NCBI GenBank assembly: GCA_003601725.1
Contig: PIYJ01000001.1
Coordinates: forward strand, 1 to 32,050
DNA: 32,050 nt
Direction of reading: 5' to 3'
From: Candidatus Bathyarchaeota archaeon
Lineage (GTDB): Archaea > Thermoproteota > Bathyarchaeia > Bathyarchaeales > DTEX01
The position numbers were made by a program, and so were the translations under genes. Under the pieces are notes generated by a model that saw nothing but the letters and a program-made list of their open reading frames with translations, had not been told where the DNA came from and searched no databases. The stretch's first letter is position 1, and the number at the start of each line of letters is the position of its first letter. Below, in pieces: positions 4,050-31,734 of this stretch.

Positions 4050-4688
4050 TCACTTCAAGAATTCTGCTTTTATTGTAATAATCTTCTGGAATACGTTTTT
4101 CCATAGATCCTTACTCATAACTGTTCTTAATGCTTCAGTGTATAATTTTATGAAAAGAGTCTCCCCATCCATCTCCGTCTCGGTCCCTTCATATTTCTTT
4201 CCAAGGATCGTCATTTGCTTAGCGATTTCCCTAGCTAGCTCGTACATCAAATCAAAATCAGCAGCGACATCGGTTTCTTCTTTCTGCGACCCATTGAATA
4301 GCTGCAGAGCGTCGAATGGTTGCCCCGCAATTTGAAATGCGCTGAAGACGCCGCGTAAGCGTTCAATGTGAAGATTGAGGAAGTCTTTTCTTAACTCTTT
4401 AGGTACTTTGTTATAATCTTCAATGAACAAGACAGCTTTAGGTTCATAATATTTCTCAAGTATGCCGTGTGAACCGGGCTTAGCCATCTTTGTCTTGATA
4501 AACTTGAATTTTCTCAGAGCAGCTATGTGATGCCCGATTGTTGATTTTGTGAGATGCATCTTCTCGGCTAACTGGGTTGCAGTTTGGGGCTTAAACGTTA
4601 GTTGACGGAGGATTTCTCTTCTCGTAGGATCGATTAGAAGCTTTATAGCTCTTGGGCTATGCACTACTTTAACAGCTTGACGAGTCAT
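4050..4688 (-). CDS. ArsR-family winged-helix transcriptional regulator with a ~130-aa C-terminal extension
   Basis: The HTH region is REILRQLTFKPQTATQLAEKMHLTKSTIGHHIAALRKFKFIK. I prefer the ATG at 4688 (MTRQAVKV...) because the longer ORF (start 4763) would leave only 32 bp for two divergent promoters. Confidence 0.7.
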   Translation of the reverse strand: MTRQAVKVVHSPRAIKLLIDPTRREILRQLTFKPQTATQLAEKMHLTKSTIGHHIAALRKFKFIKTKMAKPGSHGILEKYYEPKAVLFIEDYNKVPKELRKDFLNLHIERLRGVFSAFQIAGQPFDALQLFNGSQKEETDVAADFDLMYELAREIAKQMTILGKKYEGTETEMDGETLFIKLYTEALRTVMSKDLWKNVFQKIITIKAEFLK

Positions 4689-4795
4689 AACTTCATCACT
4701 TATCGTTGTAATATTATGGGGTTTACTGATAAAAAGTTTTATATACGTCTTATGCGTAATCATCTTATCGGTATGATACGACGTATTTAACTGAT

Positions 4796-5404
4796 ATGAT
4801 ACGTAATATTGTTGGAGAGTCGAAATTGCAATCCGATAATTGGCAGCCGTGGGATGATTACGGAATAAAATTTTATGAGAATACAGAGGAGGAGCTGACG
4901 AGACAATTAATCAAGAAAATTTTAGTTCCTGTTGATGGATCTCTAAATTCAGATCATGCCTTAGAATTCGCCATAGATCTAGCCAAAAAATACTCCGCAG
5001 AGGTCTATTTACTTTACACCATCTCATTAACCCTGATTTACTCCTTAACCTTAGGTTTATGGGAGCCCTTCTCCTCTCCCTTGCCTCCCTCATACAGAGT
5101 AGAACTGGAAGATGAAGGAGAGGAAATCTTAGCTTCAGCCTTGAACAAAGTTAAGAAGGCCGGCATAAAATCCGTCGCTTGGTTAGATTACGGACGGCCA
5201 GCTAGTAAAATAATTCAAACAGCGAAGGAGGAAAGAATAGACCTCATTGTGATGAAAGGCGAAAATCACAGCTTGATTACTAGACTCTTCTTCGGAAGCA
5301 TCAGCGACGAAGTTAGCCGTCACGCTCCATGCCCCGTCCTCATCGTGAAAAGCCGCCGAAGAAGGAACAAAACGAAAAAAGAAGGAACTTCGCATGAAAG
5401 TTAA
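4796..5404 (+). CDS. Universal stress protein (UspA family)
   Basis: KKILVPVDGS N-terminal motif and a C-terminal ATP-binding-type motif (GENHSLITRLFFGSISDEV....PVLIV). Confidence 0.85.
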   Translation: MIRNIVGESKLQSDNWQPWDDYGIKFYENTEEELTRQLIKKILVPVDGSLNSDHALEFAIDLAKKYSAEVYLLYTISLTLIYSLTLGLWEPFSSPLPPSYRVELEDEGEEILASALNKVKKAGIKSVAWLDYGRPASKIIQTAKEERIDLIVMKGENHSLITRLFFGSISDEVSRHAPCPVLIVKSRRRRNKTKKEGTSHES

Positions 5405-5693: not shown

Positions 5694-6113
5694 CTAAGTT
5701 ATCTCAGTGCCCGTAATGCTCATCACAAGCCTTCCATGTTTTACTCCTTTGCAGCTCATAATCCTGTCTGCTAGTTCCCTTATTTCTTTAGGATACCCTT
5801 TCACGGCGAGAATCTCCATGCAGTTTCGTTCATCAATATGCATATGCATCGTTGAGATGATATTCTCTCGGCGTTCATGCTGAATCTCAAGAAGCTTTTC
5901 AACCAGTCCTCTTGATTCATGATCATAGAGAACAGTTAATGACCCCATCACTTCCCTATCTGATTTTTCCCACGCCCTGTCCACGATGAAATTCACAATC
6001 AAATCCCTAATCGCCTTGGAACGATTCTTATATGCCTTTTCTTTTATAGCCTGATCAAACTTCTCTAGAAGACTTGGACTTATCGAAATGCTGAATCTAA
6101 CCGTCTTAGCCAT
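5694..6113 (-). CDS. nikR: Nickel-responsive regulator NikR (ribbon-helix-helix plus ACT-like metal-binding domain)
   Basis: MAKTVRFSISISPSLLEKFD...NRSKAIRDLI is a CopG/RHH N-terminus, and the HxxH-containing C-domain (MHMHIDERNCMEILAVKG) follows. Start chosen at ATG 6113, preceded by GGAGGGGG; the longer ORF starts at 6137. Confidence 0.85.
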   Translation of the reverse strand: MAKTVRFSISISPSLLEKFDQAIKEKAYKNRSKAIRDLIVNFIVDRAWEKSDREVMGSLTVLYDHESRGLVEKLLEIQHERRENIISTMHMHIDERNCMEILAVKGYPKEIRELADRIMSCKGVKHGRLVMSITGTEIT

Positions 6114-6276
6114 AAATCCCCCTCCGCTTTTATTCATATTTTATTCGAAGATCGACAACACACATGATTGACTAAAGAGAGCTAACTAAATAAAAATAGA
6201 GACGTAACACTATTTAAACTATTTAAAGAAAAAATTCCCATGTAAAATAACCAAAAATATCGATCCGCAAGAAACT

Positions 6277-12275: not shown

Positions 12276-14909
12276 GTGATAGGAGCAAGCAATAAAGAAG
12301 GCTCCGTGGGTTATAAGCTTCTGAACAACCTGATAGGGGTAGGATTCAAAGGGTTCGTATATCCAGTTAACCCCTTCAGTCCAAGCGTGCAAGGCTTAAC
12401 GGCTTATCCCAGCGTAAAGAAGATTCCGTGGCATGTTGACCTTGCAATAATCGCGACGCCTGCGCATATAGTCCCCCAAGTCGTTGAGGAATGCGGGGAA
12501 GCCGGGGTCAAGGGAATCATAATCGTCTCATCAGGGTTCGGCGAAGCCGGCTTGAATGGGAAGGCACTTGAAGAGCAAGTCTTAAAGCTGAAGAACGAAT
12601 ATGATATGAGAATTATTGGTCCTAACTGCTTGGGCATAATGCATCCAAGCATCAAGCTGAACGCGACCTTCGCATATAAGATGGCTAAGCCCGGCAACAT
12701 AGCTTTCGTATCTCAAAGCGGGGCGCTCTGCGCCTCGGTTTTAGATTGGGCTTCTCAAGCAAACGTTGGGTTCAGCTATTTCGTCTCTGTTGGTTCCATG
12801 CTTGACGTGGACTTTGCTGATCTAATAGATTATTTTGGAGCTGATCCGGAAACCAGAAGCATAGTGCTCTTTATTGAATCCATAAGGAATGCTAGAAAAT
12901 TCATGAGTGCCGCTAGGAGATTCGCCGGCACCAAACCTATAATTGTGATAAAGGCGGGGAGAACTCTGGAAGGCATGAAGGCAGCCGCATCTCATACAGG
13001 AGCCATCATAGGCGAAGACGCCATCTACGATGCGGCTTTTAAAAGGGTCGGCATCATCCGCGTTGAAGGCATATCTGATCTTTTCAACTGCGCAGGGATC
13101 CTCGCCATGCAGCCGATCCCAAAGGGTCCGAGACTACTGATAATTACGAATGCGGGAGGCCCCGGCGTGATGGCAACCGACTTTCTTGTATCCAAAGGGG
13201 GGAAACTCGCGTTTTTGAGCGATGAGACTCGGAGACTGCTTGATGAAGTCTTACCTTCTTATTGGAGCAAGTCTAATCCCGTTGACGTTTGCGAGGATGC
13301 CACAGCAGAGAGGTTTAGGAGAGTCTTTGACATATGCTTTAATGAGAAAAATGCTGATGGGTTTCTCGTAATTTACACTCCTATAGGAGCCGCGAGTCCA
13401 TCTGAGACGGCGGAGATCTTGGTCGAGGCTTCAAAGGGAGTTGAGAGACCCATTCTTACATCTTGGCTGGGAGAGGAGGATGTCAGGGAGGCAAGAGGCA
13501 TTCTGCAGAGAAATGGGATTCCGACTTATTCGACGCCTGAAGAGGCCATATCGACATTCATGTATATGTATCAGTATGCGAGGAACCTTGAACTTCTATA
13601 TGAGACTCCGAGGGAACTGCCGGTAAGCATGTCGATTGACAAGCAGCGTCTAATGGGGTTGATAGAGAAAGCCTTCAATGAAGAGAGGGAGCTCTTGACT
13701 GAGCTTGAATCAAAAGAGTTTCTGAGGGCTTACGGCATCCCAACCGTTGAGACTTATTTGGCGAGGTCTCCGGAAGAAGCTGCTTCAATCGCTTCTCGCA
13801 TAGGGTATCCGGTTGTGATGAAGATCATCTCTCCTCAAGTGGCACATAAGACTGACGTAGACGGGGTGATCTTGAACATCAATTCGGAAAGCAACGTGAA
13901 GAGATGCTTCAAAGAGCTAATAGAACGGGTTAGACGGCGGGATTCTTCAATTCGAATCGACGGCGTATCCGTTCAGCCCATGGTCAAAAAGGACGGCTTT
14001 GAGCTAATAATAGGATCAAAAAAGGATTCCCTGTTTGGCTCAGTCATAATTTTTGGAGCTGGAGGAATAGGAGTAGAGCTTTTCAATGATATTTCTATTG
14101 GATTCCCACCTTTGAATCAGATTCTCGCCAAAAGGATGATGGAGCAGACCAAAATCTATAAGATCCTTCTCTCCGGATACCGAGGCAGACCGCCGGCTAA
14201 TACGGCTCTTCTCGAAGAGATTCTTGTCAGATTTTCCCAGATGATAATCGACTTTCCGCAGATAAAAGAGGTGGATATAAATCCCATCGTGGTTGACGAT
14301 AGAGAAGCTGTTGTTTTAGACGCAAGGATAATCATTGACAAAGAATGCCTTCTAGGCGAAATCAAACCCTATGAGCATTTGGCGATCAGACCCTATCCAA
14401 CGAAGTACGTGAAGAAAATTACGCTTAAAGATGGAGGACCCGTTTTGATTCGACCTATTAAGCCCGAGGATGAACCGTTAATCAATGATCTTTTCAACAC
14501 ATTTTCAGAAGAGACCATGAGATTCAGATTCTTCCGCTTAATAAAAGACATTTCCCATGAAATGTTAGCGAGCTACTGCAACATCGATTATTCTAGGGAG
14601 GTCTCTCTAGTCGCAGAGGAATCGGAGAATAACTCTAATAGAATCATCGGAATGGCCCGATTGGTCGTTGAGCCGGACGGCGAAAGAGGAGAGATCGCCA
14701 TCGTTGTTGGCGATCCATGGCAGAATCTCGGTTTAGGAACCCAGCTGCTTGACCATATTATCGATGTGGGGAAAGACCTAAATTTGAAGACGATATTCGG
14801 CGAGATTCTCGCTGAGAACACTAAAATGATTCACTTATGTTACAAGAGAGGATTCAAGATTGAACAAATCGACGAGGAGAGCTATCTGGCCTCCTTAGAT
14901 CTCGCTTAA
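12276..14909 (+). CDS. Pat-like fusion: NDP-forming acyl-CoA synthetase (CoA-binding, ligase and ATP-grasp domains) plus C-terminal GNAT acetyltransferase
   Basis: GPNCLG, SQSGAL and SHTGAIIG (phospho-His region), an ATP-grasp segment, and a C-terminal GNAT acetyl-CoA motif (PWQNLGLGTQLL). The conserved N-terminus appears to continue upstream of GTG 12276 (see findings). Confidence 0.85.
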   Translation: MIGASNKEGSVGYKLLNNLIGVGFKGFVYPVNPFSPSVQGLTAYPSVKKIPWHVDLAIIATPAHIVPQVVEECGEAGVKGIIIVSSGFGEAGLNGKALEEQVLKLKNEYDMRIIGPNCLGIMHPSIKLNATFAYKMAKPGNIAFVSQSGALCASVLDWASQANVGFSYFVSVGSMLDVDFADLIDYFGADPETRSIVLFIESIRNARKFMSAARRFAGTKPIIVIKAGRTLEGMKAAASHTGAIIGEDAIYDAAFKRVGIIRVEGISDLFNCAGILAMQPIPKGPRLLIITNAGGPGVMATDFLVSKGGKLAFLSDETRRLLDEVLPSYWSKSNPVDVCEDATAERFRRVFDICFNEKNADGFLVIYTPIGAASPSETAEILVEASKGVERPILTSWLGEEDVREARGILQRNGIPTYSTPEEAISTFMYMYQYARNLELLYETPRELPVSMSIDKQRLMGLIEKAFNEERELLTELESKEFLRAYGIPTVETYLARSPEEAASIASRIGYPVVMKIISPQVAHKTDVDGVILNINSESNVKRCFKELIERVRRRDSSIRIDGVSVQPMVKKDGFELIIGSKKDSLFGSVIIFGAGGIGVELFNDISIGFPPLNQILAKRMMEQTKIYKILLSGYRGRPPANTALLEEILVRFSQMIIDFPQIKEVDINPIVVDDREAVVLDARIIIDKECLLGEIKPYEHLAIRPYPTKYVKKITLKDGGPVLIRPIKPEDEPLINDLFNTFSEETMRFRFFRLIKDISHEMLASYCNIDYSREVSLVAEESENNSNRIIGMARLVVEPDGERGEIAIVVGDPWQNLGLGTQLLDHIIDVGKDLNLKTIFGEILAENTKMIHLCYKRGFKIEQIDEESYLASLDLA

Positions 14910-15258: not shown

Positions 15259-16536
15259 TCAGATCGGTGGAGGGGGAAGCCTCTCAGTCTTCTCCGGCTC
15301 CCTAGCGAAGTGCACATCTTCTTCTTTTCGTAGCTCCTCCGTGTATTTAATCTCCCCCGCTATTCTGCAACCCCTCTCCAAGTATATATTTTTAGCATAT
15401 ACGTTTCTCGCTTTTGATCTTTCCTCCATCGTCACGAAGTCCGCGTAGATGTCCTCAGCTTCAGCCCTCTCTCCGAGAAGGACCTCCTCTGCGACGACTA
15501 CTCCCATGATTTTTCCTCTCCTGCCTATTCCAACCTTGGCTGCCTTAACTCCTTCAACAGTTTCAATTCGACCTCCAACTCGGACTGAATCTTCAGCTCT
15601 AACCGTTCGGGCCTTAACTGAGCCTCCTACTGATACAGAGTTGGCTTTGAGGGCTTCACCTACTTCGACTTTCCCTCCGACATTCAGCTTATCCGTCAAA
15701 GTAAGGTTTTTCCCTATCTTTAAGGTTCCACCGATATCGATGGATCCGCCTTCAGCATCTCCGCTAATACTCACTGTTCCGCCAACATCGATATCCAAAA
15801 ACTTCAGGTCGCCATTCACCCTCAGAGTTCCACCGACATCAATTGACCCAAGGGACAGTGTGCTGTTCGACTCAAATGTTCCCCCGACGATTATTCTTTC
15901 TTTTACTTCACCGCCAGCAACCCTCACCTTCCCCCCAACATGAAGTTTCTCAATCGAGACTTCAGATTCCGAGATGAATGTCCCACCGACCTTAACTCTT
16001 TCAACTTGGACTTCTCCTCCTCTGAATGCCCCTCCAACGCTTACCTCAGTCGCCTTTATTCTGCCCTCTATCTTAACGGTTCCACCTGCCTCAATCTGCT
16101 CTGCTTCGACATCGCCTTGAGCCTCGAATGAGCCTCCTACCTCTATTTTCCCTCCTTTTGTGTCGCCTTCAACCTTTATCTTCCCGCCTACTTCTATGCT
16201 CTCCACGGAGAGGTTCTTTCCCACAAGGACCGCTCGGTCAACCTCAATGTTTTTCGCCGATAGGTCTCCCCTAACCTCTAATCCTCCATCATGGATTCTG
16301 ATGGATCGTTCAACTGAGAGATCACCATCAACAGTTAAATCGCCCCGCCTTCCCCTAATCAAGCCGGCGGAGAGGCTGCACTTAAATGTGCAGTCACCTA
16401 CATACTGAACCGTCCCTCGAACCTCAACCTTCTCAGAATCCCCAGCTCTCACGCAAGCCCCATCTGAGAGGTAAAGATCCCCCTCAACTATGCCCAACAC
16501 CATGGTAGCCCCAGCTGGTACGGTAACTCTGTTCAA
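15259..16536 (-). CDS. Bactofilin-like (polymer-forming cytoskeletal family) beta-helix repeat protein, 425 aa
   Basis: The GG dipeptide in h-x-VGG-x units starts at residues 117, 134, 151, 168, 184, 201, 218, 235, 252, 269, 287, 304 and 321, a 16-18-residue period (mostly 17). C-terminal tail is ...KTERLPPPPI. TTG start at 16536 (alternative ATG 16503). Confidence 0.7.
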   Translation of the reverse strand: MNRVTVPAGATMVLGIVEGDLYLSDGACVRAGDSEKVEVRGTVQYVGDCTFKCSLSAGLIRGRRGDLTVDGDLSVERSIRIHDGGLEVRGDLSAKNIEVDRAVLVGKNLSVESIEVGGKIKVEGDTKGGKIEVGGSFEAQGDVEAEQIEAGGTVKIEGRIKATEVSVGGAFRGGEVQVERVKVGGTFISESEVSIEKLHVGGKVRVAGGEVKERIIVGGTFESNSTLSLGSIDVGGTLRVNGDLKFLDIDVGGTVSISGDAEGGSIDIGGTLKIGKNLTLTDKLNVGGKVEVGEALKANSVSVGGSVKARTVRAEDSVRVGGRIETVEGVKAAKVGIGRRGKIMGVVVAEEVLLGERAEAEDIYADFVTMEERSKARNVYAKNIYLERGCRIAGEIKYTEELRKEEDVHFAREPEKTERLPPPPI

Positions 16537-22251: not shown

Positions 22252-23334
22252 TTACGAGGACATCGAACGCGCCCAAATTCTACAGGTTCCTTCGCTGCTT
22301 ACCATACATGCTCCGACAGGTTTTCTCGGAGTACAAGCCTTCATGAATAATGGGCATTCTGTCGGTTTAATTTTACCGATGATGACAAGGTGACATCTGC
22401 AGCCGGGTCTTAAGTCAACTCCTCCTTCTATTTTCAAGTCGTATTTAAGATGAGCATCGAAGATTGAGTATTTCTCTTTGAGGATAAATTTAGAAGATTC
22501 AATTGATCCTAGCCCCCTCCACCGCCCATCAACCACATCGAAAACTCTATGCATAACCCTCTGAGCCTTCACGTTTCCCTCCCATCGAACAGCACGCGTA
22601 TATTCGTTTTCAAGCCTGGCCTTGCCTTCTGAAATCTGTTTCAGAATCATATAAACAGCGAAGAGAACATCAAGAGGCTCAAATCCAGCCACCACCGTGG
22701 GCATGTGATATTCGCTGGGAAAAATCTCATAAGGCTTAAGCCCAATTATGGTGCTCACATGACCCGGCGCTATGAATCCATTCAAGTTCAGCTCCTCCAT
22801 CTCGACGAGAAGCTTCATAGCTGGAGGTATGAGGCGATGGGAGATTAGGAAGCTCAGATTCTTAGGGGGATTCATTAAGACCTCAACCGCGGTTGATGGC
22901 GCCGTAGTCTCAAATCCAACAGCAAAGAATACGTAGTCCTTTTCGGGTTCCTTCTTAGCTAGTCTCACCGCGTCGCTGACGCTGTAGACCACTTTTACGT
23001 CTGCACCTTCAGCCTTCGCGTCGAGAAGAGACCGGGTGGATCCGGGTACACGGAAAACGTCCCCAAAGCAGGTGATAGTAACTCCATTCAACGTGAGCTC
23101 TATAGCTTCATCGATCTCAGATGCTGGAACGATGCATACGGGGCATCCTGGACCTGCAATGACCTCAACGTTCTCTGGGAGTAGCTCACGCAGTCCATAA
23201 TGTGTAATCGTCCATTCATGTGTTCCGCAGACGTGGCAGATCTTTATTGTTTCTTTTTTCTGAGCGAGCCGAGCTATTTTACTTCTTAAGCGTTCAGCAA
23301 GTTTCGGGTCTCTAAATCTCAGATCTGCCGTCAT
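22252..23334 (-). CDS. hypD: [NiFe]-hydrogenase maturation protein HypD
   Basis: CHVCGTHEW, GPGCPVC and GFETT motifs, plus a C-terminal Cys cluster. Confidence 0.95.
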   Translation of the reverse strand: MTADLRFRDPKLAERLRSKIARLAQKKETIKICHVCGTHEWTITHYGLRELLPENVEVIAGPGCPVCIVPASEIDEAIELTLNGVTITCFGDVFRVPGSTRSLLDAKAEGADVKVVYSVSDAVRLAKKEPEKDYVFFAVGFETTAPSTAVEVLMNPPKNLSFLISHRLIPPAMKLLVEMEELNLNGFIAPGHVSTIIGLKPYEIFPSEYHMPTVVAGFEPLDVLFAVYMILKQISEGKARLENEYTRAVRWEGNVKAQRVMHRVFDVVDGRWRGLGSIESSKFILKEKYSIFDAHLKYDLKIEGGVDLRPGCRCHLVIIGKIKPTECPLFMKACTPRKPVGACMVSSEGTCRIWARSMSS

Positions 23335-23365
23335 ATCCGTCAGCTACCATAAAATTTCAAGTGAG

Positions 23366-23590
23366 TCATGGGAGTTCTTCTTCAAGAATCTTGTTCCAGA
23401 GGCGTAGTGTCTCCTTTGCCTCCTTTTCATCTATGACTTGAATTGCGTAACCCGCGTGAACCAGAACGTAATCTCCAACTTTAACATCAACAAGCATAAT
23501 GTTGACTTCTCGGGAAACACCTCTGCCGAAATCCACCTCGGCGATTCCATCCTTCACTCTTAGGACTTTTGCAGGGATTGCTAGGCACAT
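23366..23590 (-). CDS. hypC: [NiFe]-hydrogenase maturation chaperone HypC
   Basis: MCLAIPAKV... HypC needs Cys at position 2, so the ATG at 23590 is preferred over the ORF-track start at 23599. Confidence 0.9.
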   Translation of the reverse strand: MCLAIPAKVLRVKDGIAEVDFGRGVSREVNIMLVDVKVGDYVLVHAGYAIQVIDEKEAKETLRLWNKILEEELP

Positions 23591-23643
23591 AGTTATCAAC
23601 TTTGGGATATTACAGTCCCTTCTTTCGGATAAATTTATTGTGG

Positions 23644-25938
23644 TTATCGATAATGGAACCCCGCTACAACTGCCTGACCGAATGATAAGCCTCCATCGCC
23701 GGGTGGGACAGCTTCGTGCACAAAGAATTTTAAGCCAGAAGACTCAACGAATTTTCGGATCTCTGAGGTCATAATTTCATTATACGCGACTCCTCCGGAG
23801 AATCCAACGGCTTTAACATCTTTTTCCTTAGCTTTCTCCACGGCAAGCATGGCTAAGCCCTTCGCTAAGTAAACATGCGCGGAGAATGCTAGGTTCTCCT
23901 TTGAAACTTTATCTTTATTCTTGAAGATCTCTACGATTAGATGCGTAGTATCTAGGATGTCTCCTCTTAATATCGGATTCAATTTCAATGCGTCTTTGCC
24001 TCGAATGGCTAATGATTCAAGCTTCATCGCGGGCTCCCCCTCATAGGTCCGCTCATAGCATACATCCAGAATCGCGGCAACGGCGTCTAAAATTCTTCCG
24101 CAGCTCGATGTCTCAACAACGTTTCTGCCAGTTTCAAGCTGCTTAAGAATCACCTCGATCTCCATTTCGCCATGCGTAAGATTCTTTTTATGCTGCATTA
24201 ACCATTCCATTACATCTACCTTTTCATATAATATGCCTGCTGCAACTCTTAGCGGAAAACGCGTGGCTAAGTCTCCTCCGACTAGAGGTTGTTCTTGAAG
24301 ATGCCCTAATCTTTTGAATCTATGTGATTCCCGTGTGCAAAACAAAATTTCGCCGCCCCATGCTTCTCCGTTGAGACCGTAGCCGTAACCATCGCAGCAT
24401 ATACCGATCATCTCATCGATGTCATGTTCAGCCATTAGGCTTGCTATATGCGCATAGTGATGTTGCACTTGAATCATTTGATATCCGTTCTCATCTGCGA
24501 TTCGCTTGGCGAGATTAGTAGTCGTAAATTTTGGATGAAGATCACATGCGACTGCTTCAATTTTGCTGTTTGTGAGGCGTATTAGATGCTGGCTTGCTTC
24601 TTCTAAGAAATCTCGAGTCTCTATATTTTCTACATCGCCAATATGTTGAGATATGAAAGCTTTATCTCGTAGAAGAACGCATGCTGTATTGTTCAATTCT
24701 CCGCCTAAGCCTAAAACGCATCTTTTACTATTTCTCTTCAGGATTACAGGGGCAGGCGCATAACCTCGGGAACGTCTTATGAAGACTTGCTTCTCGCCGT
24801 GAACTCGAATGACAGAATCATCGCATCTGTGGGCTATTTGCCTGTTATGGAAAAGGAAGTAATCTACAATTCCATCTAATCTTTTCAATGCTTCATCATC
24901 CTCCTTTATTATCGGTTGATTCGGAGGATTCGCACTTGTCATAACGAAAGCTGGATCTTCAACTTCGTCGAAAAGCATATAATGCAAGCCTGTGTAAGGC
25001 AGCATAACTCCGACGTTATGAAGCCCCGGAGCGATCAAATCAGATAAATAATATTCATCTTTTTTCCTCAAGAGAACAATCGGCCTAGTATAAGAAAAGA
25101 GAAGCGCCTTCTCCGTTGGATTTATTTCTGCAAATGTTTCTATCGCCTCGATGCTTGGAGCCATTATTGCGAAGGGTTTCTGTTTTCGATGTTTTGCTTT
25201 TCTAAGCCTAATAAGAGGCTTCTCGATTAACGTTGAAGCAGCAACATGGAATCCTCCATAGCCTTTAATCGTAACTATGAATCCTTCTGAGAGAAGTCTT
25301 CCCGCTTCTCTGACTGGGTCTTTATGTTCAACGAGTTCGCCATCTCGATCGGTAAGGTAGACTTTAGGTCCACATTTTGGACATGCAACGGTTTGAGCAT
25401 GAAATCGTCTGTTCAGTGGATCAGAATATTCATCGTGGCAGAAACTGCACATCGGGAAGTCACGCATAGTTGTGTTCTCTCGGTCGTAGGGAAGCTTCTC
25501 AATTATGGTATATCGAGGCCCGCAGTTAGTGCATGTTATGAAGAAGTAGTCATATCTTGGGTCTTTCGGGTCTCTGAGTTCTTTTAGGCATTCCTCGCAT
25601 ATGGATATATCCGGCGGGATGACGGAGCCTGAAAGTTCAGATTTATAGGAGCTTTTGTAAATTTCAAATCTGTCATAGCAAGGCTCTCCTTTCAGCTGCT
25701 CTGTGATTACTTCATATATTCGGGCTAATGGCGGTTTCTTTGCTCTAAGATCATTCATGAACCTTTTGATGTCGTCTTCCCGTCCCTCTATGAGGATTTC
25801 TACGCCGGCGTCTCCTCGATTTCGAACATATCCAGCTAACTGGTTTTTAACGGCAATTCGGTAAATGAACGGACGGAAGCCTACTCCTTGAACTATACCT
25901 CTTACCCTTATTTTCAGACGCAAATCTGCACCTTCCAT
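23644..25938 (-). CDS. hypF: Carbamoyltransferase HypF
   Basis: Acylphosphatase-like N-terminus (VRGIVQGVGFRPF), two CxxC...CxxC zinc-finger pairs, and YrdC-like plus Kae1-like domains. ATG 25938 is preferred; TTG 25944 is possible. Confidence 0.95.
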   Translation of the reverse strand: MEGADLRLKIRVRGIVQGVGFRPFIYRIAVKNQLAGYVRNRGDAGVEILIEGREDDIKRFMNDLRAKKPPLARIYEVITEQLKGEPCYDRFEIYKSSYKSELSGSVIPPDISICEECLKELRDPKDPRYDYFFITCTNCGPRYTIIEKLPYDRENTTMRDFPMCSFCHDEYSDPLNRRFHAQTVACPKCGPKVYLTDRDGELVEHKDPVREAGRLLSEGFIVTIKGYGGFHVAASTLIEKPLIRLRKAKHRKQKPFAIMAPSIEAIETFAEINPTEKALLFSYTRPIVLLRKKDEYYLSDLIAPGLHNVGVMLPYTGLHYMLFDEVEDPAFVMTSANPPNQPIIKEDDEALKRLDGIVDYFLFHNRQIAHRCDDSVIRVHGEKQVFIRRSRGYAPAPVILKRNSKRCVLGLGGELNNTACVLLRDKAFISQHIGDVENIETRDFLEEASQHLIRLTNSKIEAVACDLHPKFTTTNLAKRIADENGYQMIQVQHHYAHIASLMAEHDIDEMIGICCDGYGYGLNGEAWGGEILFCTRESHRFKRLGHLQEQPLVGGDLATRFPLRVAAGILYEKVDVMEWLMQHKKNLTHGEMEIEVILKQLETGRNVVETSSCGRILDAVAAILDVCYERTYEGEPAMKLESLAIRGKDALKLNPILRGDILDTTHLIVEIFKNKDKVSKENLAFSAHVYLAKGLAMLAVEKAKEKDVKAVGFSGGVAYNEIMTSEIRKFVESSGLKFFVHEAVPPGDGGLSFGQAVVAGFHYR

Positions 25939-25948
25939 AGACAATAGG

Positions 25949-26491
25949 TCAGCAGGAGAAACGCTTTTCTCTAATCTTATTAGAAGCCTCGTCTTGAAAT
26001 GCTTCTTTCACAATCTTCATAAGCAGATCAGCGATTTTTCTTGATACCTCCTGAAGTTTAGGTGAAAGCCCTTCTTTAAACTCTATGCTTTCAGGTTGAA
26101 TTCCTAAAAGCTTTACATCAGCTCCGATATTTTGTTTGATGATCTCCGCTAAAAAGGATAGAGGAAGCGTATGAGTGGAAAGAGCGGTTCCAGCGATCTC
26201 TTCGATTGAGATCAATCTTGAGGCGCCAGCTTCCTCCTTGAGATGCGCTGCGTCTATCATCAGAACATGAGTAGGGTTAAATTCTTCTATTTTACTGAGA
26301 TAATTCTCCGGGACCATCCCGCATTCCAGAAGCAGCACATTCCCGGGAATCCTCCCTGAAAGATTTTGAATCACCTTCAATCCTACCGCGTCGTCTCCTC
26401 TTAGGGGATTGCCTATTCCAAGAATCACGAGTCTCCGGCATCCTCTCAACCAAGCGTAAAGCTGATCACACAATGCAATTTGAGAATCCAT
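25949..26491 (-). CDS. Hydrogenase maturation endopeptidase (HycI/HyaD/FrhD family)
   Basis: LVILGIGNPLRGDDAVG motif, about 180 aa, first gene of the hyp operon. Confidence 0.85.
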   Translation of the reverse strand: MDSQIALCDQLYAWLRGCRRLVILGIGNPLRGDDAVGLKVIQNLSGRIPGNVLLLECGMVPENYLSKIEEFNPTHVLMIDAAHLKEEAGASRLISIEEIAGTALSTHTLPLSFLAEIIKQNIGADVKLLGIQPESIEFKEGLSPKLQEVSRKIADLLMKIVKEAFQDEASNKIREKRFSC

Positions 26492-28255: not shown

Positions 28256-30973
28256 CTAGAATGTCTGAGTTGGAAAACTCCTCTTTAAACTCTTCATCAA
28301 TTCCTCTTGAGAGGAGAATCCCAGTAAGGCCTCTACTGCTGCTTCTATGAATGTCTGAACGGGAATGATCACCATATCCTTTTCTGAGAGGAGCTTCTCT
28401 GTATCGAATCCTTTGAGTCTTTCATAGTTATATCTCGGCATGATGAGCTTTCGGGCGTATCTATCTGATAAAGCAGCTTCAATCTTCCCCATTCCCCTAT
28501 AATCAAGTCCCCCAACGGGCCAGACCTCTCCCCTCGCAGTGATTGCGCCGGTCATCACAACGGTCGGGTCGACCTCCACGTTCAGAAATGCTGAAAGCAT
28601 CGCAACTGCTATAGCTAGACCTGCCGATGGACCTGAAACAGGCGGCCTCGTAATTCCAGGCGTAAACATCTGTTTCTCCATTCCCTTAGCTGGGGTTACT
28701 ATTTCGATGTAAACATCGTAATCTTTAAACTTCCAATCTGATATGGAGTTTATGTGAATAAAAGCGTCTTGTGCGCTTGCAAGAATACTTTCTCCCGCCT
28801 CGCTGCCTATAACCTGGATCTTTCCTGATCCTCTCGGATTAACTATAACCTCGATGACTCCTACTAAACCTCCGAGTTCTCCTCGTTCCCCAAGTGCAAT
28901 TAAGCCGTAGCTCTTTCCAACTTCGGGTTTTTGAATCCTGACGGTCTGCTGAACCATTCTCTGCGCTTCTTCCACAGTTTCATCGAATGTTCTCTCTAAT
29001 GCTTTTTCAAAATGATATAGCCGAAGAGGATAGTTAGAGGGGTCGACCTTTTCCAATCTCTCTATGAGTTCAGGGTCTTCTCTGCCGATTCCAAGGTTCT
29101 CAAAGAGCCTTTCTAAGTCATCCTTGAACAGCCTCTCTATTTCTCTGGTCTTCTCTTCCCCATATTTAATTGCCTCTAAGAGTTTACGGCAAGCCTCAAG
29201 CTCCTTTGTTCTAAGCCGGTTCGCATCGTCAACAGCATCCGCGATTTTTCTTGGACTTAGAATCTTCTTTTCGAATACTCTAAGCACATCTTCCGGAGTT
29301 ATATCCTTATCCAAAGCATCCTTGTATCTTCGAAGATGAACCATCAGAATCTCTAGTTTTTCAATTCTGTTCTTCGGATAAGTAAAGTTGAAGTGACGGG
29401 TGAAACGTTCAAGTAGAGCCTCATCAAGTATCTCAAATCTGTTCGTTGCGCCTATGACAACCACATTCGTCAGAGGAGTAAAACCATCTATCTCCGTCAG
29501 CAGTTGTGAGACCACTCTATCAACAACAGGATCATGGGTCCCCCTTTTAGGCGCAATAGAGTCTATCTCATCGAAAAAGATTATGGCTGGAGCGTTTCTC
29601 CGAGCGTCCGCAAAGATGTCGCGTATCGTCTTCTCAGGGTCTCCGTATCTGCCTTGAAGTATAGAGGGGCCATTAATATTGTAAAACCAAACGTCATTCT
29701 CTCCGGCGATCGCTTTAGCCAGCAAAGTCTTCCCGGTTCCCGGCGGACCGTAGAATATGAAGCCTTTAGGGGGGAGATATCCAGCTTTAACAGCTAAGTC
29801 CGCGTCGATAGCTAAGGAGATCTCTTTGATTATCTCCTCTTTGATTCCATGTAGCCCTCCAACGTCGCTATATCTTTCTCTTGGGGCGATTCTATTTACA
29901 GATCTCCTAGCCGCCTCTGTCTTCTCTTGATAGGTATATGTTTTCAGTCTTCGAGCTGCTGCTCTGAAGTCGTCTAATGTGATCGTTTTTCCGACTTCTA
30001 CTTTTGTAAATCGTCGTTTCCTAATTTTATGAATTAAACTTTCTTGCAGAGGCCTATATCTCTCATTCATAATTATGTTAAAGGCGCTTACAACGTCTGC
30101 TGGCGTTAGACGAGTGTTTCCCACGGCGCGTACAGCATCTTCAAGGGTCTCTACAATATCTGTTGGTTTAAGATTTATTTTATACTTCTTGCATTGCCTC
30201 CTAGCTATTTCTAGAAGCATGTTTCTATTTGTGCTTGCATCCAGATCGATCGTGCCGACTATTCCTCTTCTCCGCAGCGTCTCAGTGATCGTCTCATATT
30301 CATTAGTCGATATCAACAGGATACACCGGTAATTCTTCTTCTGCAGCTCATCAATCTTTTCTAGAAAGACGGTTTGAACCCTCTTCTCTTCCATTCCAAC
30401 CTCGGAGGTAGATGAGAATCTACTTCCGAAAGCTTGAAACTCGTCAATTAAAATTATGCTGGGCCTTTGGAAGGCTTCTTGAAAGAAGCTGCCTAGCTGC
30501 TGAGCGCTTCTTCCATACCACATGGTATAAACGTTCTCTGGTTTTAAAGAAGCGTAACTTACAATCATTCCGTATTTTAATCCTTCCTCAAAGACTTCTC
30601 TTTGGCAAATCTCAGCGAAGAATGTTTTCCCGCTGCCGGAGCTTCCTTTTAGAATGAAGATTTTGGATGGGGGAACAGGACAAGCCTTACGAACTTCTGG
30701 ATCGCGAAATATGTGATAATGAGCGCTTACCAAGACTTTATTCAGTTCTTTCTCTCTGCCGACAAGATCCTTTCTGCTTACGTTGGGAAAATCAGCTCTT
30801 TTTCGTATTTTCTTAGCTCTTTTTTCAGCTTCTTTTTTTCTTTTCTCAGGAGGCTTTTGAAGGAATCTCCATAATCTGTACTGCCAAGAAAAGAGGTAAA
30901 GTAAAGGTGAAAAGAGCTTTCTAAGTCTTGGTTTATTGTACCACCATTGATCTGAGAATTCATCTTCGTCCAT
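28256..30973 (-). CDS. Fusion protein: divergent P-loop ATPase (D1), classical AAA ATPase (D2) and C-terminal Lon (S16) protease domain, about 905 aa
   Basis: D1: LVGREKEL, Walker A GSSGSGKT (30623-30646), Walker B IILIDEF. D2: YSDVGGL, GPPGTGKTLLAKA (Walker A at 29726-29749), IIFFDEIDSIAPKR, VIGATNR. Lon domain: VSGPSAGLAIAVAM (Ser codon 28625-28627), VVMTGAITARGEVWPVGGL, GKIEAA. Start set at ATG 30973, 2 nt after the upstream stop with GGGGG upstream; the ORF-track start at 31069 would overlap the neighbouring gene by 94 nt. Confidence 0.85.
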   Translation of the reverse strand: MDEDEFSDQWWYNKPRLRKLFSPLLYLFSWQYRLWRFLQKPPEKRKKEAEKRAKKIRKRADFPNVSRKDLVGREKELNKVLVSAHYHIFRDPEVRKACPVPPSKIFILKGSSGSGKTFFAEICQREVFEEGLKYGMIVSYASLKPENVYTMWYGRSAQQLGSFFQEAFQRPSIILIDEFQAFGSRFSSTSEVGMEEKRVQTVFLEKIDELQKKNYRCILLISTNEYETITETLRRRGIVGTIDLDASTNRNMLLEIARRQCKKYKINLKPTDIVETLEDAVRAVGNTRLTPADVVSAFNIIMNERYRPLQESLIHKIRKRRFTKVEVGKTITLDDFRAAARRLKTYTYQEKTEAARRSVNRIAPRERYSDVGGLHGIKEEIIKEISLAIDADLAVKAGYLPPKGFIFYGPPGTGKTLLAKAIAGENDVWFYNINGPSILQGRYGDPEKTIRDIFADARRNAPAIIFFDEIDSIAPKRGTHDPVVDRVVSQLLTEIDGFTPLTNVVVIGATNRFEILDEALLERFTRHFNFTYPKNRIEKLEILMVHLRRYKDALDKDITPEDVLRVFEKKILSPRKIADAVDDANRLRTKELEACRKLLEAIKYGEEKTREIERLFKDDLERLFENLGIGREDPELIERLEKVDPSNYPLRLYHFEKALERTFDETVEEAQRMVQQTVRIQKPEVGKSYGLIALGERGELGGLVGVIEVIVNPRGSGKIQVIGSEAGESILASAQDAFIHINSISDWKFKDYDVYIEIVTPAKGMEKQMFTPGITRPPVSGPSAGLAIAVAMLSAFLNVEVDPTVVMTGAITARGEVWPVGGLDYRGMGKIEAALSDRYARKLIMPRYNYERLKGFDTEKLLSEKDMVIIPVQTFIEAAVEALLGFSSQEELMKSLKRSFPTQTF

Positions 30974-30975
30974 TT

Positions 30976-31734
30976 TTAACCCCCTTCTGAAAGAGTGAAT
31001 GTAGTGAAACGATATATTTGGTAAGCGAAATAAACGCTTATCAGCATCATTACTCCTACCATTATCCATCTAGTATATGAAACGATCTCCTTTTTACTCT
31101 TGAAGTAGGTATCAAGAAAAACAAAACTGTTGACATAAGCGATCAGAATCCATGCTGCTAAAAGTAAAGCCATGTTTACTGGCGTTGGAAGCGTAATATA
31201 AGGAAAATAAGAGAAGGATCTGGCAAGGCTATGACTTTCTAAGGGGATAATTATCGTCCAATTTCCCGAATGCCGCGTAAAAGACGCCCGCTCCACGAAA
31301 GACCCTCGAGTAATTATTCCTTGCCCCCAATATTCCTCATAGAATTTCAGGTTTCTGGTAAAGACGCCCAATGTATACTTCCAAGATTCATTACTAGCAA
31401 AGCTAATCGTCAAGTTATAAATCCCGGGTCCATTAAGTTGAACTCCAACAACAGAAACTTCTCCAAGAAAGAGATCCACATACCTTGTTGAGATGGATAG
31501 ATCAAACAAACCGCCACGATTTAAGGGTTGGCATCGGGCTGATAAATTCTCTATTCGAGGGCTGAGAAAGACCACGAATACGTCTCTTTCAAGAACATCT
31601 ATCTTTCCAAGAGGACGATCTATGTTTAAGTAATTACCTTTAGAAGCACATACCGCTATGGGAAAAACCTGGGATATAAAGATAGATAATATTGTAAAAA
31701 GAAGAAGGTTTCTGGAAGATAAGGGATTAGGCAT
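30976..31734 (-). CDS. Predicted membrane protein: N-terminal signal/anchor, about 150-aa extracytoplasmic domain, two C-terminal TM helices
   Basis: Hydrophobic N-terminus NLLLFTILSIFISQVFPIAV. Four N-x-S/T sequons in the middle domain (NLS, NLT, NES, NWT). C-terminal hydrophobic stretches VNMALLLAAWILIAYVNSFVFL and WIMVGVMMLISVYFAYQIY. No recognisable family. Confidence 0.6.
   Translation of the reverse strand: MPNPLSSRNLLLFTILSIFISQVFPIAVCASKGNYLNIDRPLGKIDVLERDVFVVFLSPRIENLSARCQPLNRGGLFDLSISTRYVDLFLGEVSVVGVQLNGPGIYNLTISFASNESWKYTLGVFTRNLKFYEEYWGQGIITRGSFVERASFTRHSGNWTIIIPLESHSLARSFSYFPYITLPTPVNMALLLAAWILIAYVNSFVFLDTYFKSKKEIVSYTRWIMVGVMMLISVYFAYQIYRFTTFTLSEGG

What the first reader, a model, noticed from the sequence alone, without database searches (positions are those of the whole stretch)
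28256..31734. Two-gene module: membrane protein translationally coupled to an ATPase-ATPase-Lon protease fusion
Seen in sequence. The 3' gene fuses three modules. (i) An N-terminal aromatic/hydrophobic helix-like stretch (WWYNKPRLRKLFSPLLYLFSWQYRLWRFL) and a poly-basic linker. (ii) A divergent P-loop ATPase with an LVGREKEL lead-in, which I associate with Orc1/Cdc6- and 'archaeal ATPase'-type NTPases; it has Walker A GSSGSGKT and Walker B ILIDEF. (iii) A textbook classical-AAA module of the Cdc48/FtsH/PAN type: YSDVGGL, GPPGTGKT, FFDEID, GATNR and an RYG pore-loop-like element. A Lon S16 proteolytic domain with the Ser (GPSAG) and Lys (GKIEAA) dyad positions closes the protein. Established knowledge: canonical LonA and LonB use a single Lon-type (HCLR-clade) AAA+ module, and archaeal LonB is anchored by TM helices inserted in that module. 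This protein has no TM insertion. Instead the gene immediately upstream encodes a membrane protein with sequons, ending 2 nt before the protease ATG. Inference: this could be an uncharacterised membrane-associated unfoldase-protease in which the partner supplies the anchor or an extracytoplasmic sensing domain. A role in regulated proteolysis, signalling or defence cannot be excluded. It is the most system-like unexplained unit in the window.
Basis: partly seen in the sequence, partly recalled or inferred. Interest (0 to 1): 0.7.

Follow-up and report, generated by a model that had tools for sequence, protein, structure and literature searches.

The report
Cdc48-like double-AAA Lon protease with membrane partner
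This is a real, strongly conserved but uncharacterised archaeal gene pair: a small membrane glycoprotein and an ATP-driven protease that joins a Cdc48/p97-like double motor to a Lon protease domain, a combination that no paper I could find describes.

Summary
On the minus strand, a 252-aa membrane protein (30976-31734) ends 2 nt before the ATG (30973) of a 905-aa protein (28256-30973). That protein has a conserved aromatic N-terminal segment, two classical AAA modules, a helical linker and a Lon (S16) domain with Ser783 and Lys830 invariant.

One correction: D1 is not an Orc1/Cdc6- or 'archaeal ATPase'-type NTPase. It is a divergent classical AAA module, collinear with Cdc48/VAT D1 (pore loop MWYG, Walker B DE, RRRG arginines).

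The family (about 900 aa, 55-93% identical) was found in 63 species-level genomes of Bathyarchaeia, Brockarchaeota, Marsarchaeota and related Thermoproteota, annotated only as 'AAA family ATPase'. The partner lies directly upstream in 62 of 62 testable loci, and no other neighbour is shared by more than 16. Distant relatives (26-40% identity, same architecture) have unrelated upstream genes. Four of five examined still encode a two-helix membrane hairpin at or near the C-terminus, three with a signal peptide and ectodomain.

Best reading: a hexameric double-ring unfoldase-protease held at the membrane by its interfacial N-terminal helix and the partner's hairpin and loop. It would be functionally analogous to FtsH and LonB. 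The membrane link and the substrates are inferred. It is a new variant of a known kind.

The parts
30976..31734 (-). Partner gene, 252 aa. It has a signal/TM helix (res 1-31), a beta-sandwich ectodomain with 4 sequons (res ~35-170), TM1 (183-207), a basic cytoplasmic loop DTYFKSKKEIVSYTR (208-222), TM2 (223-245) and a short tail.
   Evidence: ORF. No Pfam, NCBIfam or PADLOC hit. Hydropathy and sequons. AF2 model pLDDT 77.5, ectodomain about 90. No significant PDB fold match. Homologues found only next to the AAA-Lon gene.
31069..31113 (-). Cytoplasmic loop of the partner (res 208-222), its most conserved segment. Candidate contact site for the protease.
   Evidence: Across 40 partner sequences the commonest-residue frequency is 0.67 here, against 0.44 in the ectodomain and 0.31 in the signal region. 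D208, Y210, K214, S219 and R222 are at least 82% conserved. The contact itself is inferred.
30971..30990 (-). Gene junction: SD-like GAAGGGGG inside the partner's last codons, stop TAA (30976-30978), 2 nt, then ATG (30971-30973) of the protease gene.
   Evidence: The same tight junction occurs in related Bathyarchaeia loci.
28256..30973 (-). AAA-AAA-Lon protease gene, 905 aa plus stop.
30794..30973 (-). N-terminal region (res 1-60): an acidic tip (MDEDEF), an invariant aromatic motif (W10 W11 R18 F21 P23 L25 S29 W30 R33 L38) and a basic helix. Predicted interfacial membrane-binding or partner-binding element.
   Evidence: Invariant columns. Residues 20-38 give the most favourable Wimley-White interfacial window of the whole protein (-9.4 kcal/mol), yet Kyte-Doolittle hydropathy of 0.58 is too low for a TM helix. 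AF2 predicts helices 15-28, 30-38 and 42-57. A similar aromatic-basic motif is seen in 7 of the 12 distant relatives whose sequences were read; P0148, P0152 and P0155 have other N-termini.
29984..30793 (-). D1, a divergent classical AAA module (res 61-330): Walker A GSSGSGKT, pore loop M151-W-Y-G154, Walker B D177-E178, sensor-1 region STN, arginines R235-R236.
   Evidence: Hits VAT (5g4g) at E = 1.5e-23 with the motifs aligned. The CDC48 model TIGR01243 spans 48-647. The motif residues are invariant in 13 sequences. Coordinates.
29294..29890 (-). D2, a canonical classical AAA module (res 362-560): Walker A GPPGTGKT, pore loop R442-Y443-G444, Walker B D468-E469, N511-R512. The second region of homology reads ALLE522-R523-F, so one of the two usual arginines is an invariant Glu.
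   Evidence: PF00004 at 3.9e-59. VAT and p97 D2 at about 1e-47. Invariant columns. Coordinates.
28934..29293 (-). D2 lid plus helical linker (res 561-680), with the invariant SPR(K/R) motif and N585-R586.
   Evidence: All-helical in the AF2 model. It is conserved together with the Lon domain in distant relatives: query 1-340 is matched at their C-termini.
28283..28933 (-). Lon (S16) proteolytic domain (res 681-897). Catalytic Ser783 lies in PVSGPSAG (codon 28625-28627) and Lys830 in GMGKIEAA (codon 28484-28486).
   Evidence: Lon_C PF05362 at 3.8e-15. Best PDB hits are 8dvh, 3k1j and 1z0b at about 1e-11, with Ser and Lys aligned to the catalytic residues. Both residues are invariant in the family.

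Best explanation
The pair encodes a two-component, membrane-associated, ATP-dependent protease.

The 905-aa subunit most likely forms a hexamer, as its Cdc48/VAT and Lon relatives do. That would stack a D1 ring, a D2 ring and a Lon-type Ser-Lys proteolytic chamber. Substrates would be engaged by the aromatic pore loops of D1 (MWYG) and D2 (RYG), unfolded by ATP hydrolysis, and threaded from the N-terminal face into the Lon chamber for degradation.

The protein has no transmembrane segment. Its conserved Trp/Tyr/Arg-rich N-terminal helix would lie at the membrane interface and dock onto the two-helix hairpin and basic cytoplasmic loop of the co-expressed 252-aa glycoprotein. The D1 entry pore would then face the membrane. 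This is the same geometry as FtsH (membrane - AAA - protease) and archaeal LonB.

The likely job is extraction and degradation of membrane or membrane-proximal proteins as a core housekeeping or quality-control function. The fast-evolving ectodomain of the partner may add a regulatory or sensing input.

What is shown: domain identities, intact catalytic and motor motifs, translational coupling, and strict gene linkage.
What is inferred: hexamer formation, the direction of threading, physical binding to the partner, and the substrate class.
For: Domains and motifs:
- Pfam AAA (two stretches) plus Lon_C.
- The CDC48 model covers residues 48-647 collinearly.
- Foldseek of the AF2 model hits p97/CDC48 over about 650 columns at E about 1e-26.
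- D1 aligns with VAT as a classical AAA at 1.5e-23.
- The Lon Ser and Lys align to the catalytic residues.
- All Walker, pore-loop, arginine and Ser/Lys positions are invariant in 13 sequences spanning 55-81% identity.

Coupling: stop, 2 nt, then ATG, with an SD-like G-run.

Linkage:
- The partner lies directly upstream in 62 of 62 testable species-level loci: 48 ORFs on the same strand and 16 head-to-head.
- The next real neighbour family is shared by 16 loci or fewer.
- Flanking genes differ between lineages.

Distant relatives:
- Relatives at 26-40% identity keep the AAA-AAA-linker-Lon order. Seven of the 12 whose sequences were read also keep a similar aromatic N-terminal motif.
- In four of five loci examined, the upstream gene is unrelated in sequence yet ends in a two-TM hairpin. 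One is only an 85-aa hairpin. Three also have a signal/TM segment and a sequon-rich ectodomain.

Partner topology:
- The loop between the TM helices is the partner's most conserved part and is basic, consistent with a cytoplasmic location. The sequons lie in the ectodomain.
- The N-terminal window 20-38 of the protease is the most interface-seeking segment of that protein but is not TM-grade.

Context: core housekeeping genes surround the pair in the window.
Against: - There is no direct evidence of a physical complex.
- The AF2 monomer is only moderate (pLDDT 76, pTM 0.41), and the relative domain placement is not reliable.
- D2 has an invariant Glu where classical AAA proteins have the first of two arginines (ALLERF), so its hydrolysis mechanism may be atypical.
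- The partner ectodomain gave no fold match, so its role is open.
- In one distant relative (L075) no clear hairpin partner was found.
- Whether these genomes also carry a canonical LonB could not be tested here.
Confidence: 0.55

Rival explanations
1. Signal-transducing protease. The partner would be mainly a sensor or regulated substrate rather than a passive anchor. Changes sensed by its glycosylated ectodomain would gate the protease, or would expose the partner itself to degradation, as an envelope-stress switch.
For: - The ectodomain is a well-folded beta-sandwich (pLDDT about 90).
- It evolves much faster than the protease: partners are 42-68% identical where the proteases are 75-93%.
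- It varies in size and fold among distant relatives, from 85 to 441 aa, as receptor domains often do.
- One locus (L027) has two tandem partner copies.
Against: - The partner has no cytoplasmic output domain, only a loop of about 15 residues.
- No transcription factor or other effector is conserved nearby.
- One distant relative keeps only the hairpin with no ectodomain (L076), so the ectodomain is dispensable for the core association.
Confidence: 0.2
2. Soluble cytosolic quality-control protease. The gene linkage would reflect only co-expression, or a shared process, without physical contact. The N-terminal aromatic segment would be a substrate- or adaptor-binding element standing in for the missing Cdc48 N domain.
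For: - There is no TM helix in the protease.
- Cdc48/VAT relatives are soluble.
- The N-terminal segment contains invariant arginines and is predicted as short helices packed near D1.
Against: - Adjacency holds in 62 of 62 loci through changes of orientation and of all other neighbours.
- A hairpin membrane gene recurs next to relatives that share no partner sequence similarity.
- The partner's cytoplasmic loop is its best-conserved part.
- The junction is translationally coupled.
Confidence: 0.17
3. Anti-virus or conflict system: an AAA ATPase plus protease effector, comparable to IetAS or the Lon-type proteases of CRISPR-associated signalling.
For: PADLOC IetA and TRIP13 models hit D2, but this is generic classical-AAA similarity.
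Against: - The sequence is very strongly conserved (mean column identity 71% across class- or phylum-level lineages).
- Each of the 63 hits is a distinct locus in a different MAG or isolate.
- The gene sits among core housekeeping genes.
- No defence genes are conserved nearby.
- The partner has no PADLOC hit.
Confidence: 0.03
4. The Lon domain is a non-catalytic scaffold and the protein acts only as an unfoldase or segregase.
For: - Some distant relatives have degenerate sites. P0174 lacks the GPSAG serine context, and P0152 and P0161 have degenerate D1 Walker B motifs.
- The Ser-Lys spacing is 4 residues longer than in classified Lons (PMC9569914).
Against: In the window's family Ser783, Lys830 and the surrounding GPSAG and GKIEAA motifs are invariant and align to catalytic residues of solved Lon structures.
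Confidence: 0.05

Closest known systems
Archaeal LonB (membrane-bound Lon, MEROPS S16.005; e.g. Thermococcus onnurineus 3k1j, Archaeoglobus fulgidus 1z0b)
   Same: - A C-terminal Lon S16 domain with a Ser-Lys dyad, fused in cis to its ATPase.
- Among the best sequence matches of the P domain (E about 1e-11).
- Acts at the archaeal membrane (established for LonB, inferred here).
   Different: - LonB has one Lon-type (HCLR-clade) AAA+ module with two TM helices inserted between Walker A and B. Here there are two classical-clade AAA modules, no TM helix, and a separate membrane protein.
- The catalytic motif is GPSAG (Pro before Ser, 'A-type'), not the LonB (E/D)GDSA motif (criterion from PMC9569914).
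- The Ser-Lys spacing is 46 intervening residues instead of 42.
Cdc48 / VAT / p97 (type II classical AAA unfoldases that feed the 20S proteasome in archaea)
   Same: - A collinear D1-D2 tandem.
- Best sequence and fold matches.
- Aromatic pore loops in both rings, as in VAT.
   Different: - No Cdc48 N domain: no PF02359 or PF02933 hit, and the TIGR01243 score of 235 is below the 802 cutoff.
- The protease is fused in cis (Lon) rather than docked in trans (20S).
- The genomes also carry a separate canonical CDC48 (P0347).
- The D2 arginine region is ALLERF.
FtsH (bacterial and organellar membrane AAA protease)
   Same: - A classical-clade AAA fused N-terminally to a protease in one chain, in the order membrane - AAA - protease.
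- Membrane-protein quality control. FtsH is stated to be absent from Archaea (PMC4864567).
- The FtsH model hits D2 at 9.5e-51.
   Different: FtsH has one AAA ring, an M41 zinc metalloprotease and its own two TM helices. Here there are two rings, a serine-lysine Lon domain, and an anchor supplied (by inference) by a second gene.
LonBA (Bacillus subtilis 'LonB', PDB 8dvh)
   Same: - An A-type catalytic motif.
- The membrane element lies outside the AAA module, at the N-terminal side.
- Top PDB sequence hit of the P domain (3.3e-11).
   Different: LonBA has a single Lon-type AAA+ module and its own N-terminal TM segment, and has so far been found only in Firmicutes (PMC9569914).

Membership tests
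Lon proteases (MEROPS S16) | Lon_C proteolytic domain fold | tested here: met
   PF05362 at 56.4 bits against a cutoff of 21.1. Hits solved Lon P domains at about 1e-11.
Lon proteases (MEROPS S16) | Catalytic Ser-Lys dyad present and alignable | tested here: met
   S783 and K830 align to the catalytic residues of 8dvh, 3k1j and 1z0b and are invariant. The spacing is 4 residues longer than the 42 given for classified Lons (PMC9569914).
Lon proteases (LonA/LonB/LonC/LonBA 'true Lons') | A single Lon-type (HCLR-clade) AAA+ module directly preceding the P domain | tested here: not met
   Both ATPase modules match classical AAA PF00004, Cdc48, PAN and FtsH. The LonB and Lon models match only residues 659-897.
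LonB | Transmembrane insertion between Walker A and B of the AAA+ module | tested here: not met
   No TM-grade hydrophobic window in residues 1-778.
LonB | Asp before the catalytic Ser ((E/D)GDSA(S/T)) | tested here: not met
   The sequence is PVSGPSAG, with Pro before Ser, i.e. A-type (criterion from PMC9569914).
LonA | N-terminal LON substrate-binding domain (PF02190) | tested here: not met
   No PF02190 hit at E <= 1.
CDC48/VAT/p97 (TIGR01243) | Tandem classical AAA D1-D2 | tested here: met
   TIGR01243 aligns residues 48-647 to model positions 158-714. Foldseek hits p97 at E about 1e-26 over about 650 columns.
CDC48/VAT/p97 (TIGR01243) | N-terminal double-psi barrel / beta-clam domain (PF02359, PF02933), and a family score above the cutoff | tested here: not met
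   No such Pfam hits. The score is 235 bits against a cutoff of 802.65. Canonical CDC48 paralogues in the same phylum do have these domains.
FtsH | M41 zinc metalloprotease domain and N-terminal TM helices | tested here: not met
   Only the AAA part of the FtsH models matches, at 173 bits against a cutoff of 600. No TM helix.
AAA+ ring unfoldase-protease (functional class) | Hexameric ring with ATP-dependent substrate threading into a sequestered chamber | not testable with these tools
   All motor and catalytic motifs are intact. The oligomeric state and the activity need experiment.

The most novel reading that the evidence does not exclude
This would be a previously unrecognised class of archaeal energy-dependent protease, a 'Cdc48-Lon' double-ring machine. 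It would work as an obligate two-gene unit with a hairpin membrane glycoprotein. The partner's extracytoplasmic domain would report the state of the cell envelope across the membrane to the cytoplasmic unfoldase-protease. That would give a trans-membrane regulated proteolysis system unrelated to site-2 proteases, FtsH-HflKC or LonB.
Probability: 0.25. Interest if true: 0.8.

Novelty: new variant of a known kind. Interest (0 to 1): 0.62.

Why it matters
The recognised Lon subfamilies (LonA, LonB, LonC, LonBA) each pair the Lon protease domain with one Lon-type AAA+ module. Cdc48/VAT-type double-ring unfoldases are known to hand substrates to a separate protease, the 20S proteasome. This family joins the two worlds in one chain, which shows that the Lon chamber can be driven by a classical-clade type II motor.

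It is strongly conserved (mean column identity 71%) and was found in 63 species-level genomes of Bathyarchaeia, Brockarchaeota and related Thermoproteota, which are known largely from metagenomes. More distant relatives occur in Nitrososphaerales. Databases call it only 'AAA family ATPase'.

If the membrane link is real, it is a further route to membrane-protein quality control in organisms that lack FtsH, and a compact system for studying how a two-ring motor feeds a fused protease. It also offers a test case for how a soluble AAA protease is recruited by a minimal two-helix membrane adaptor.

Tried and rejected
1. D1 as an Orc1/Cdc6, STAND or 'archaeal ATPase' module. Rejected. The Pfam hits of that kind (AAA_16, nSTAND3, NPHP3_N, Torsin) are weak and fall below or at their cutoffs. 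The VAT/Cdc48 alignment covers the whole module with all motifs in register.

2. Start codon at 31069 (937 aa). Rejected in favour of 30973.

3. Fold assignment for the partner ectodomain. Foldseek against the PDB gave nothing at E <= 1e-3. The top hits were chagasin-like inhibitors at E about 7e-3 with TM-scores of 0.2-0.36, which I treat as a generic beta-sandwich.

4. A deeper partner alignment for structure prediction (A4, 40 sequences including locus translations).

5. Sequence homology between the partner and the upstream genes of distant relatives. None was found: an HMM of 71 partner ORF translations from the fetched loci gave E >= 0.04. Only the architecture is shared.

6. Defence-system reading. 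PADLOC hits are generic AAA similarity, and the genomic context is housekeeping.

7. Literature searches. Nine searches and five papers were read. One search was wasted, because 'LonD' matched 'London'. Nothing described this architecture. Older closed-access AAA+ classifications could not be searched.

8. Looking for a cultured host via the Nitrososphaerales relative. Only MAG or metagenome sequences were returned.

Full report
**1. What is in the sequence**

Two ORFs lie head-to-tail on the minus strand: 30976-31734 (252 aa) and 28256-31069. The mechanical ORF of the second gene starts inside the first. The real start is almost certainly the ATG at 30973, giving 905 aa.
- Full-length homologues are 905 aa and align from MDEDEF.
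- The junction reads ...GAA GGG GGT TAA AA ATG..., that is a G-rich Shine-Dalgarno-like run, the stop, two bases, then the start.
- In related Bathyarchaeia loci the partner's stop lies 12-24 nt before the conserved EFxxxWW motif.

**2. The large protein**

Pfam finds two stretches of classical AAA (PF00004, 3.9e-59) and a Lon_C domain (PF05362, 56.4 bits against a cutoff of 21.1; residues 681-878). The NCBIfam CDC48 model aligns residues 48-647 in one collinear stretch, but at 235 bits, far under its 802 cutoff. The LonB and Lon models match only residues 659-897.

Against solved structures, the whole protein hits VAT and p97 (3.8e-92). D1 alone (residues 1-331) hits VAT at 1.5e-23, with these pairs in register:

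| Element | This protein (D1) | VAT |
|---|---|---|
| Pore loop | MWYG | KYYG / KWVG |
| Walker B | IDEF | IDEI |
| Sensor-1 region | STNE | ATNR |
| Arginine region | LRRRG | LRRPGR |

The AF2 model (pLDDT 76) matches p97/CDC48 over about 650 columns at E about 1e-26.

The Lon domain matches BsLonBA (8dvh), TonLonB (3k1j) and AfLonB (1z0b) at about 1e-11, with Ser783 (PVSGPSAG) and Lys830 (GMGKIEAA) on the catalytic residues. A four-residue insertion sits before the lysine. By the published criterion (Pro versus Asp before the serine; PMC9569914) the active site is 'A-type'.

The protein has no Cdc48 N domain, no LON domain and no TM-grade segment.

In an alignment of 13 family members (55-81% identical to the window protein) the following are invariant:
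- every Walker A/B, pore-loop and arginine position of both rings;
- the Ser and Lys;
- the N-terminal motif E5 F6 W10 W11 R18 F21 P23 L25 S29 W30 R33 L38.

One oddity: D2 reads ALLE522-R523-F where classical AAA proteins read LLRPGRF, so one of the two arginines is an invariant Glu. More distant relatives keep the canonical LRAGRFDR.

**3. The small protein**

It has no hit in Pfam, NCBIfam or PADLOC. Hydropathy and the AF2 model (pLDDT 77.5) give this layout:
- an N-terminal hydrophobic helix (signal peptide or anchor);
- a confident beta-sandwich at residues 37-168 carrying four sequons;
- a disordered linker;
- two C-terminal TM helices (184-214 and 220-249), joined by the basic loop DTYFKSKKEIVSYTR.

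The positive-inside rule and the sequons place the beta-sandwich outside the cell and the loop in the cytoplasm. That placement is an inference. The ectodomain has no significant structural neighbour in the PDB. Its 24 detectable homologues are all unnamed, and they diverge much faster than the protease.

**4. Comparative evidence**

*Distribution.* A scan of one genome per species with two family-specific peptide patterns found 63 loci. All are in Bathyarchaeia, Brockarchaeota, Marsarchaeota, 'Thermoproteati' and a few MAGs labelled Nitrososphaerota or Thaumarchaeota.

*Linkage.* A partner HMM finds a homologue directly upstream in every locus that has upstream DNA, 62 of 62. L016 has only 164 nt upstream and cannot be tested. 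The partner is co-directional in Bathyarchaeia, Marsarchaeota and strain 3918-20, and head-to-head in the Brockarchaeota-type loci.

*Only the pair is conserved.* All-against-all clustering of the loci's ORFs gives the protease in 63 loci and the partner in 62. The next clusters are antisense shadow ORFs inside the protease gene. No real neighbour is shared by more than 16 loci.

*Conservation within the partner.* The cytoplasmic loop is the best-conserved region: commonest-residue frequency 0.67, against 0.44 in the ectodomain.

*A wider superfamily.* An exhaustive search with the C-terminal 346 residues found 16 representatives below 1e-30 and 37 below 1e-10. They include proteins of 860-1120 aa at 26-40% identity with the same AAA-AAA-linker-Lon order. 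Seven of the 12 sequences read also carry a similar aromatic N-terminal motif. A Nitrososphaerales group carries an extra C-terminal BSP domain.

*Upstream genes of distant relatives.* They share no sequence similarity with the partner, but a two-TM hairpin recurs:

| Locus | Upstream gene | Note |
|---|---|---|
| L072 | 441 aa | Signal/TM segment, ectodomain, C-terminal two-TM hairpin |
| L074 | 242 aa | Signal/TM segment, sequon-rich ectodomain, C-terminal hydrophobic stretch (res 165-234) read as a two-TM hairpin |
| L071 | 362 aa | Same architecture, with one C-terminal hydrophobic stretch (res 325-361) read as a hairpin; an HNH-like gene lies between it and the protease gene |
| L076 | 85 aa | Consists of little more than a two-TM hairpin |
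| L075 | unclear | No clear hairpin partner found |

The constant element is thus the membrane hairpin next to the protease gene.

**5. Mechanism**

The best-supported reading is a self-compartmentalised, hexameric, double-ring unfoldase feeding a fused Lon chamber. It would be recruited to the cytoplasmic face of the membrane in two ways:
- by its own N-terminal helix, where residues 20-38 form the most favourable Wimley-White interfacial window in the protein (-9.4 kcal/mol) yet are not hydrophobic enough to span the bilayer;
- by the partner's hairpin and loop.

The acidic tip of the protease (MDEDEF; consensus EExEFE) and the basic partner loop are charge-complementary. That is an observation, not a test.

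With the N-terminus at the membrane, the D1 entry pore faces the bilayer and the protease is distal, as in FtsH. The housekeeping genomic context (Nop5, fibrillarin, lysine biosynthesis, Hyp maturation) and the very high conservation fit a core proteostasis role, and argue against a defence system.

Rival readings remain open: the partner as sensor or substrate, a soluble enzyme with mere co-expression, and an inactive Lon domain. They are weighed in the rival section.

**6. Comparison with known systems**

It works like FtsH or LonB (membrane-proximal AAA protease) and like Cdc48/VAT (type II classical motor). It fails defining tests of each family:
- no Lon-type AAA+ module, TM insertion or LON domain;
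- no Cdc48 N domain, and a sub-threshold family score;
- no M41 domain.

The Lon classification I could read recognises LonA, LonB, LonC and LonBA, each with a single ATPase domain built on a Lon-type AAA+ module (PMC9569914). A 2008 survey of Lon domain architectures lists no tandem-AAA form (PMC2605481). Nine literature searches found no description of the fusion, though one of them was uninformative. Older closed-access AAA+ classifications could not be checked. Database names are only 'AAA family ATPase', 'SpoVK/Ycf46/Vps4 family' or 'transitional endoplasmic reticulum ATPase'.

**7. Verdict**

I rate it a new variant of a known kind: an ATP-dependent AAA protease with an undescribed motor-protease combination and an obligate membrane-protein neighbour. 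Interest is 0.62. The architecture and linkage are solid. Membrane recruitment, substrates and any sensing role are inferred and need the experiments listed.

Noticed in passing
P0117 and P0172, both 1261 aa: P0117, a 1261-aa family member, carries intein and homing-endonuclease Pfam domains (PF14528, PF14890) in addition to AAA and Lon_C. This points to an intein inserted in the protease gene. P0172 has the same length, but its domains were not looked up, so an intein there is only presumed.
   Followed up: no
L071:3411-4004 (+): A 197-aa basic protein with an HNH-like CxxC...HH...CxxC-H motif sits between the hairpin membrane gene and the AAA-Lon gene of a distant relative. It overlaps the protease start by 4 nt and looks like a mobile endonuclease inserted into the pair.
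   Followed up: partly
P0161/P0299; L072:3001-6363: A Nitrososphaerales subgroup of the superfamily (1120 aa) has an extra C-terminal BSP domain (PF04450, 'peptidase of plants and bacteria') after the Lon domain. Its D1 Walker A and B motifs are degenerate (GPGWGKK, FIEQAQ).
   Followed up: partly
L027:3307-4098 and 4157-4978; L014:748-1503: One Bathyarchaeota genome has two tandem copies of the partner gene upstream of the protease. In another the partner is split into two ORFs, from a frameshift or a sequencing error.
   Followed up: no
window 29384-29455 (-), residues 507-530: The D2 second region of homology reads ALLE-R-F. An invariant Glu522 replaces one of the two canonical arginines. 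More distant relatives keep LRAGRFDR.
   Followed up: partly
window 12276-14909 (+): An 877-aa fusion of an ADP-forming acyl-CoA synthetase (CoA_binding, Succ_CoA_lig, ATP-grasp_5) with a C-terminal GNAT acetyltransferase, resembling Pat-type protein acetyltransferases.
   Followed up: no
window 15259-16536 (-): A 425-aa protein with a weak bactofilin domain match (9.7e-09, with no single stretch above threshold). This is unusual for an archaeon if real.
   Followed up: no
window 5694-6137 and 22252-26491 (-): Nickel and hydrogenase maturation genes: a NikR-like regulator, HypD, HypF and a HycI-type maturation protease. They point to a [NiFe]-hydrogenase in this Bathyarchaeia-like genome.
   Followed up: no
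window 28539-30874 (+): Nine plus-strand ORFs of 53-91 aa lie antisense within the protease gene. They recur in related loci only as shadows of the conserved coding frame and are not genes.
   Followed up: yes
P0167: One 897-aa family member is labelled 'Candidatus Nealsonbacteria bacterium', a bacterial CPR lineage. This is probably a binning error, but it could be a transfer.
   Followed up: no
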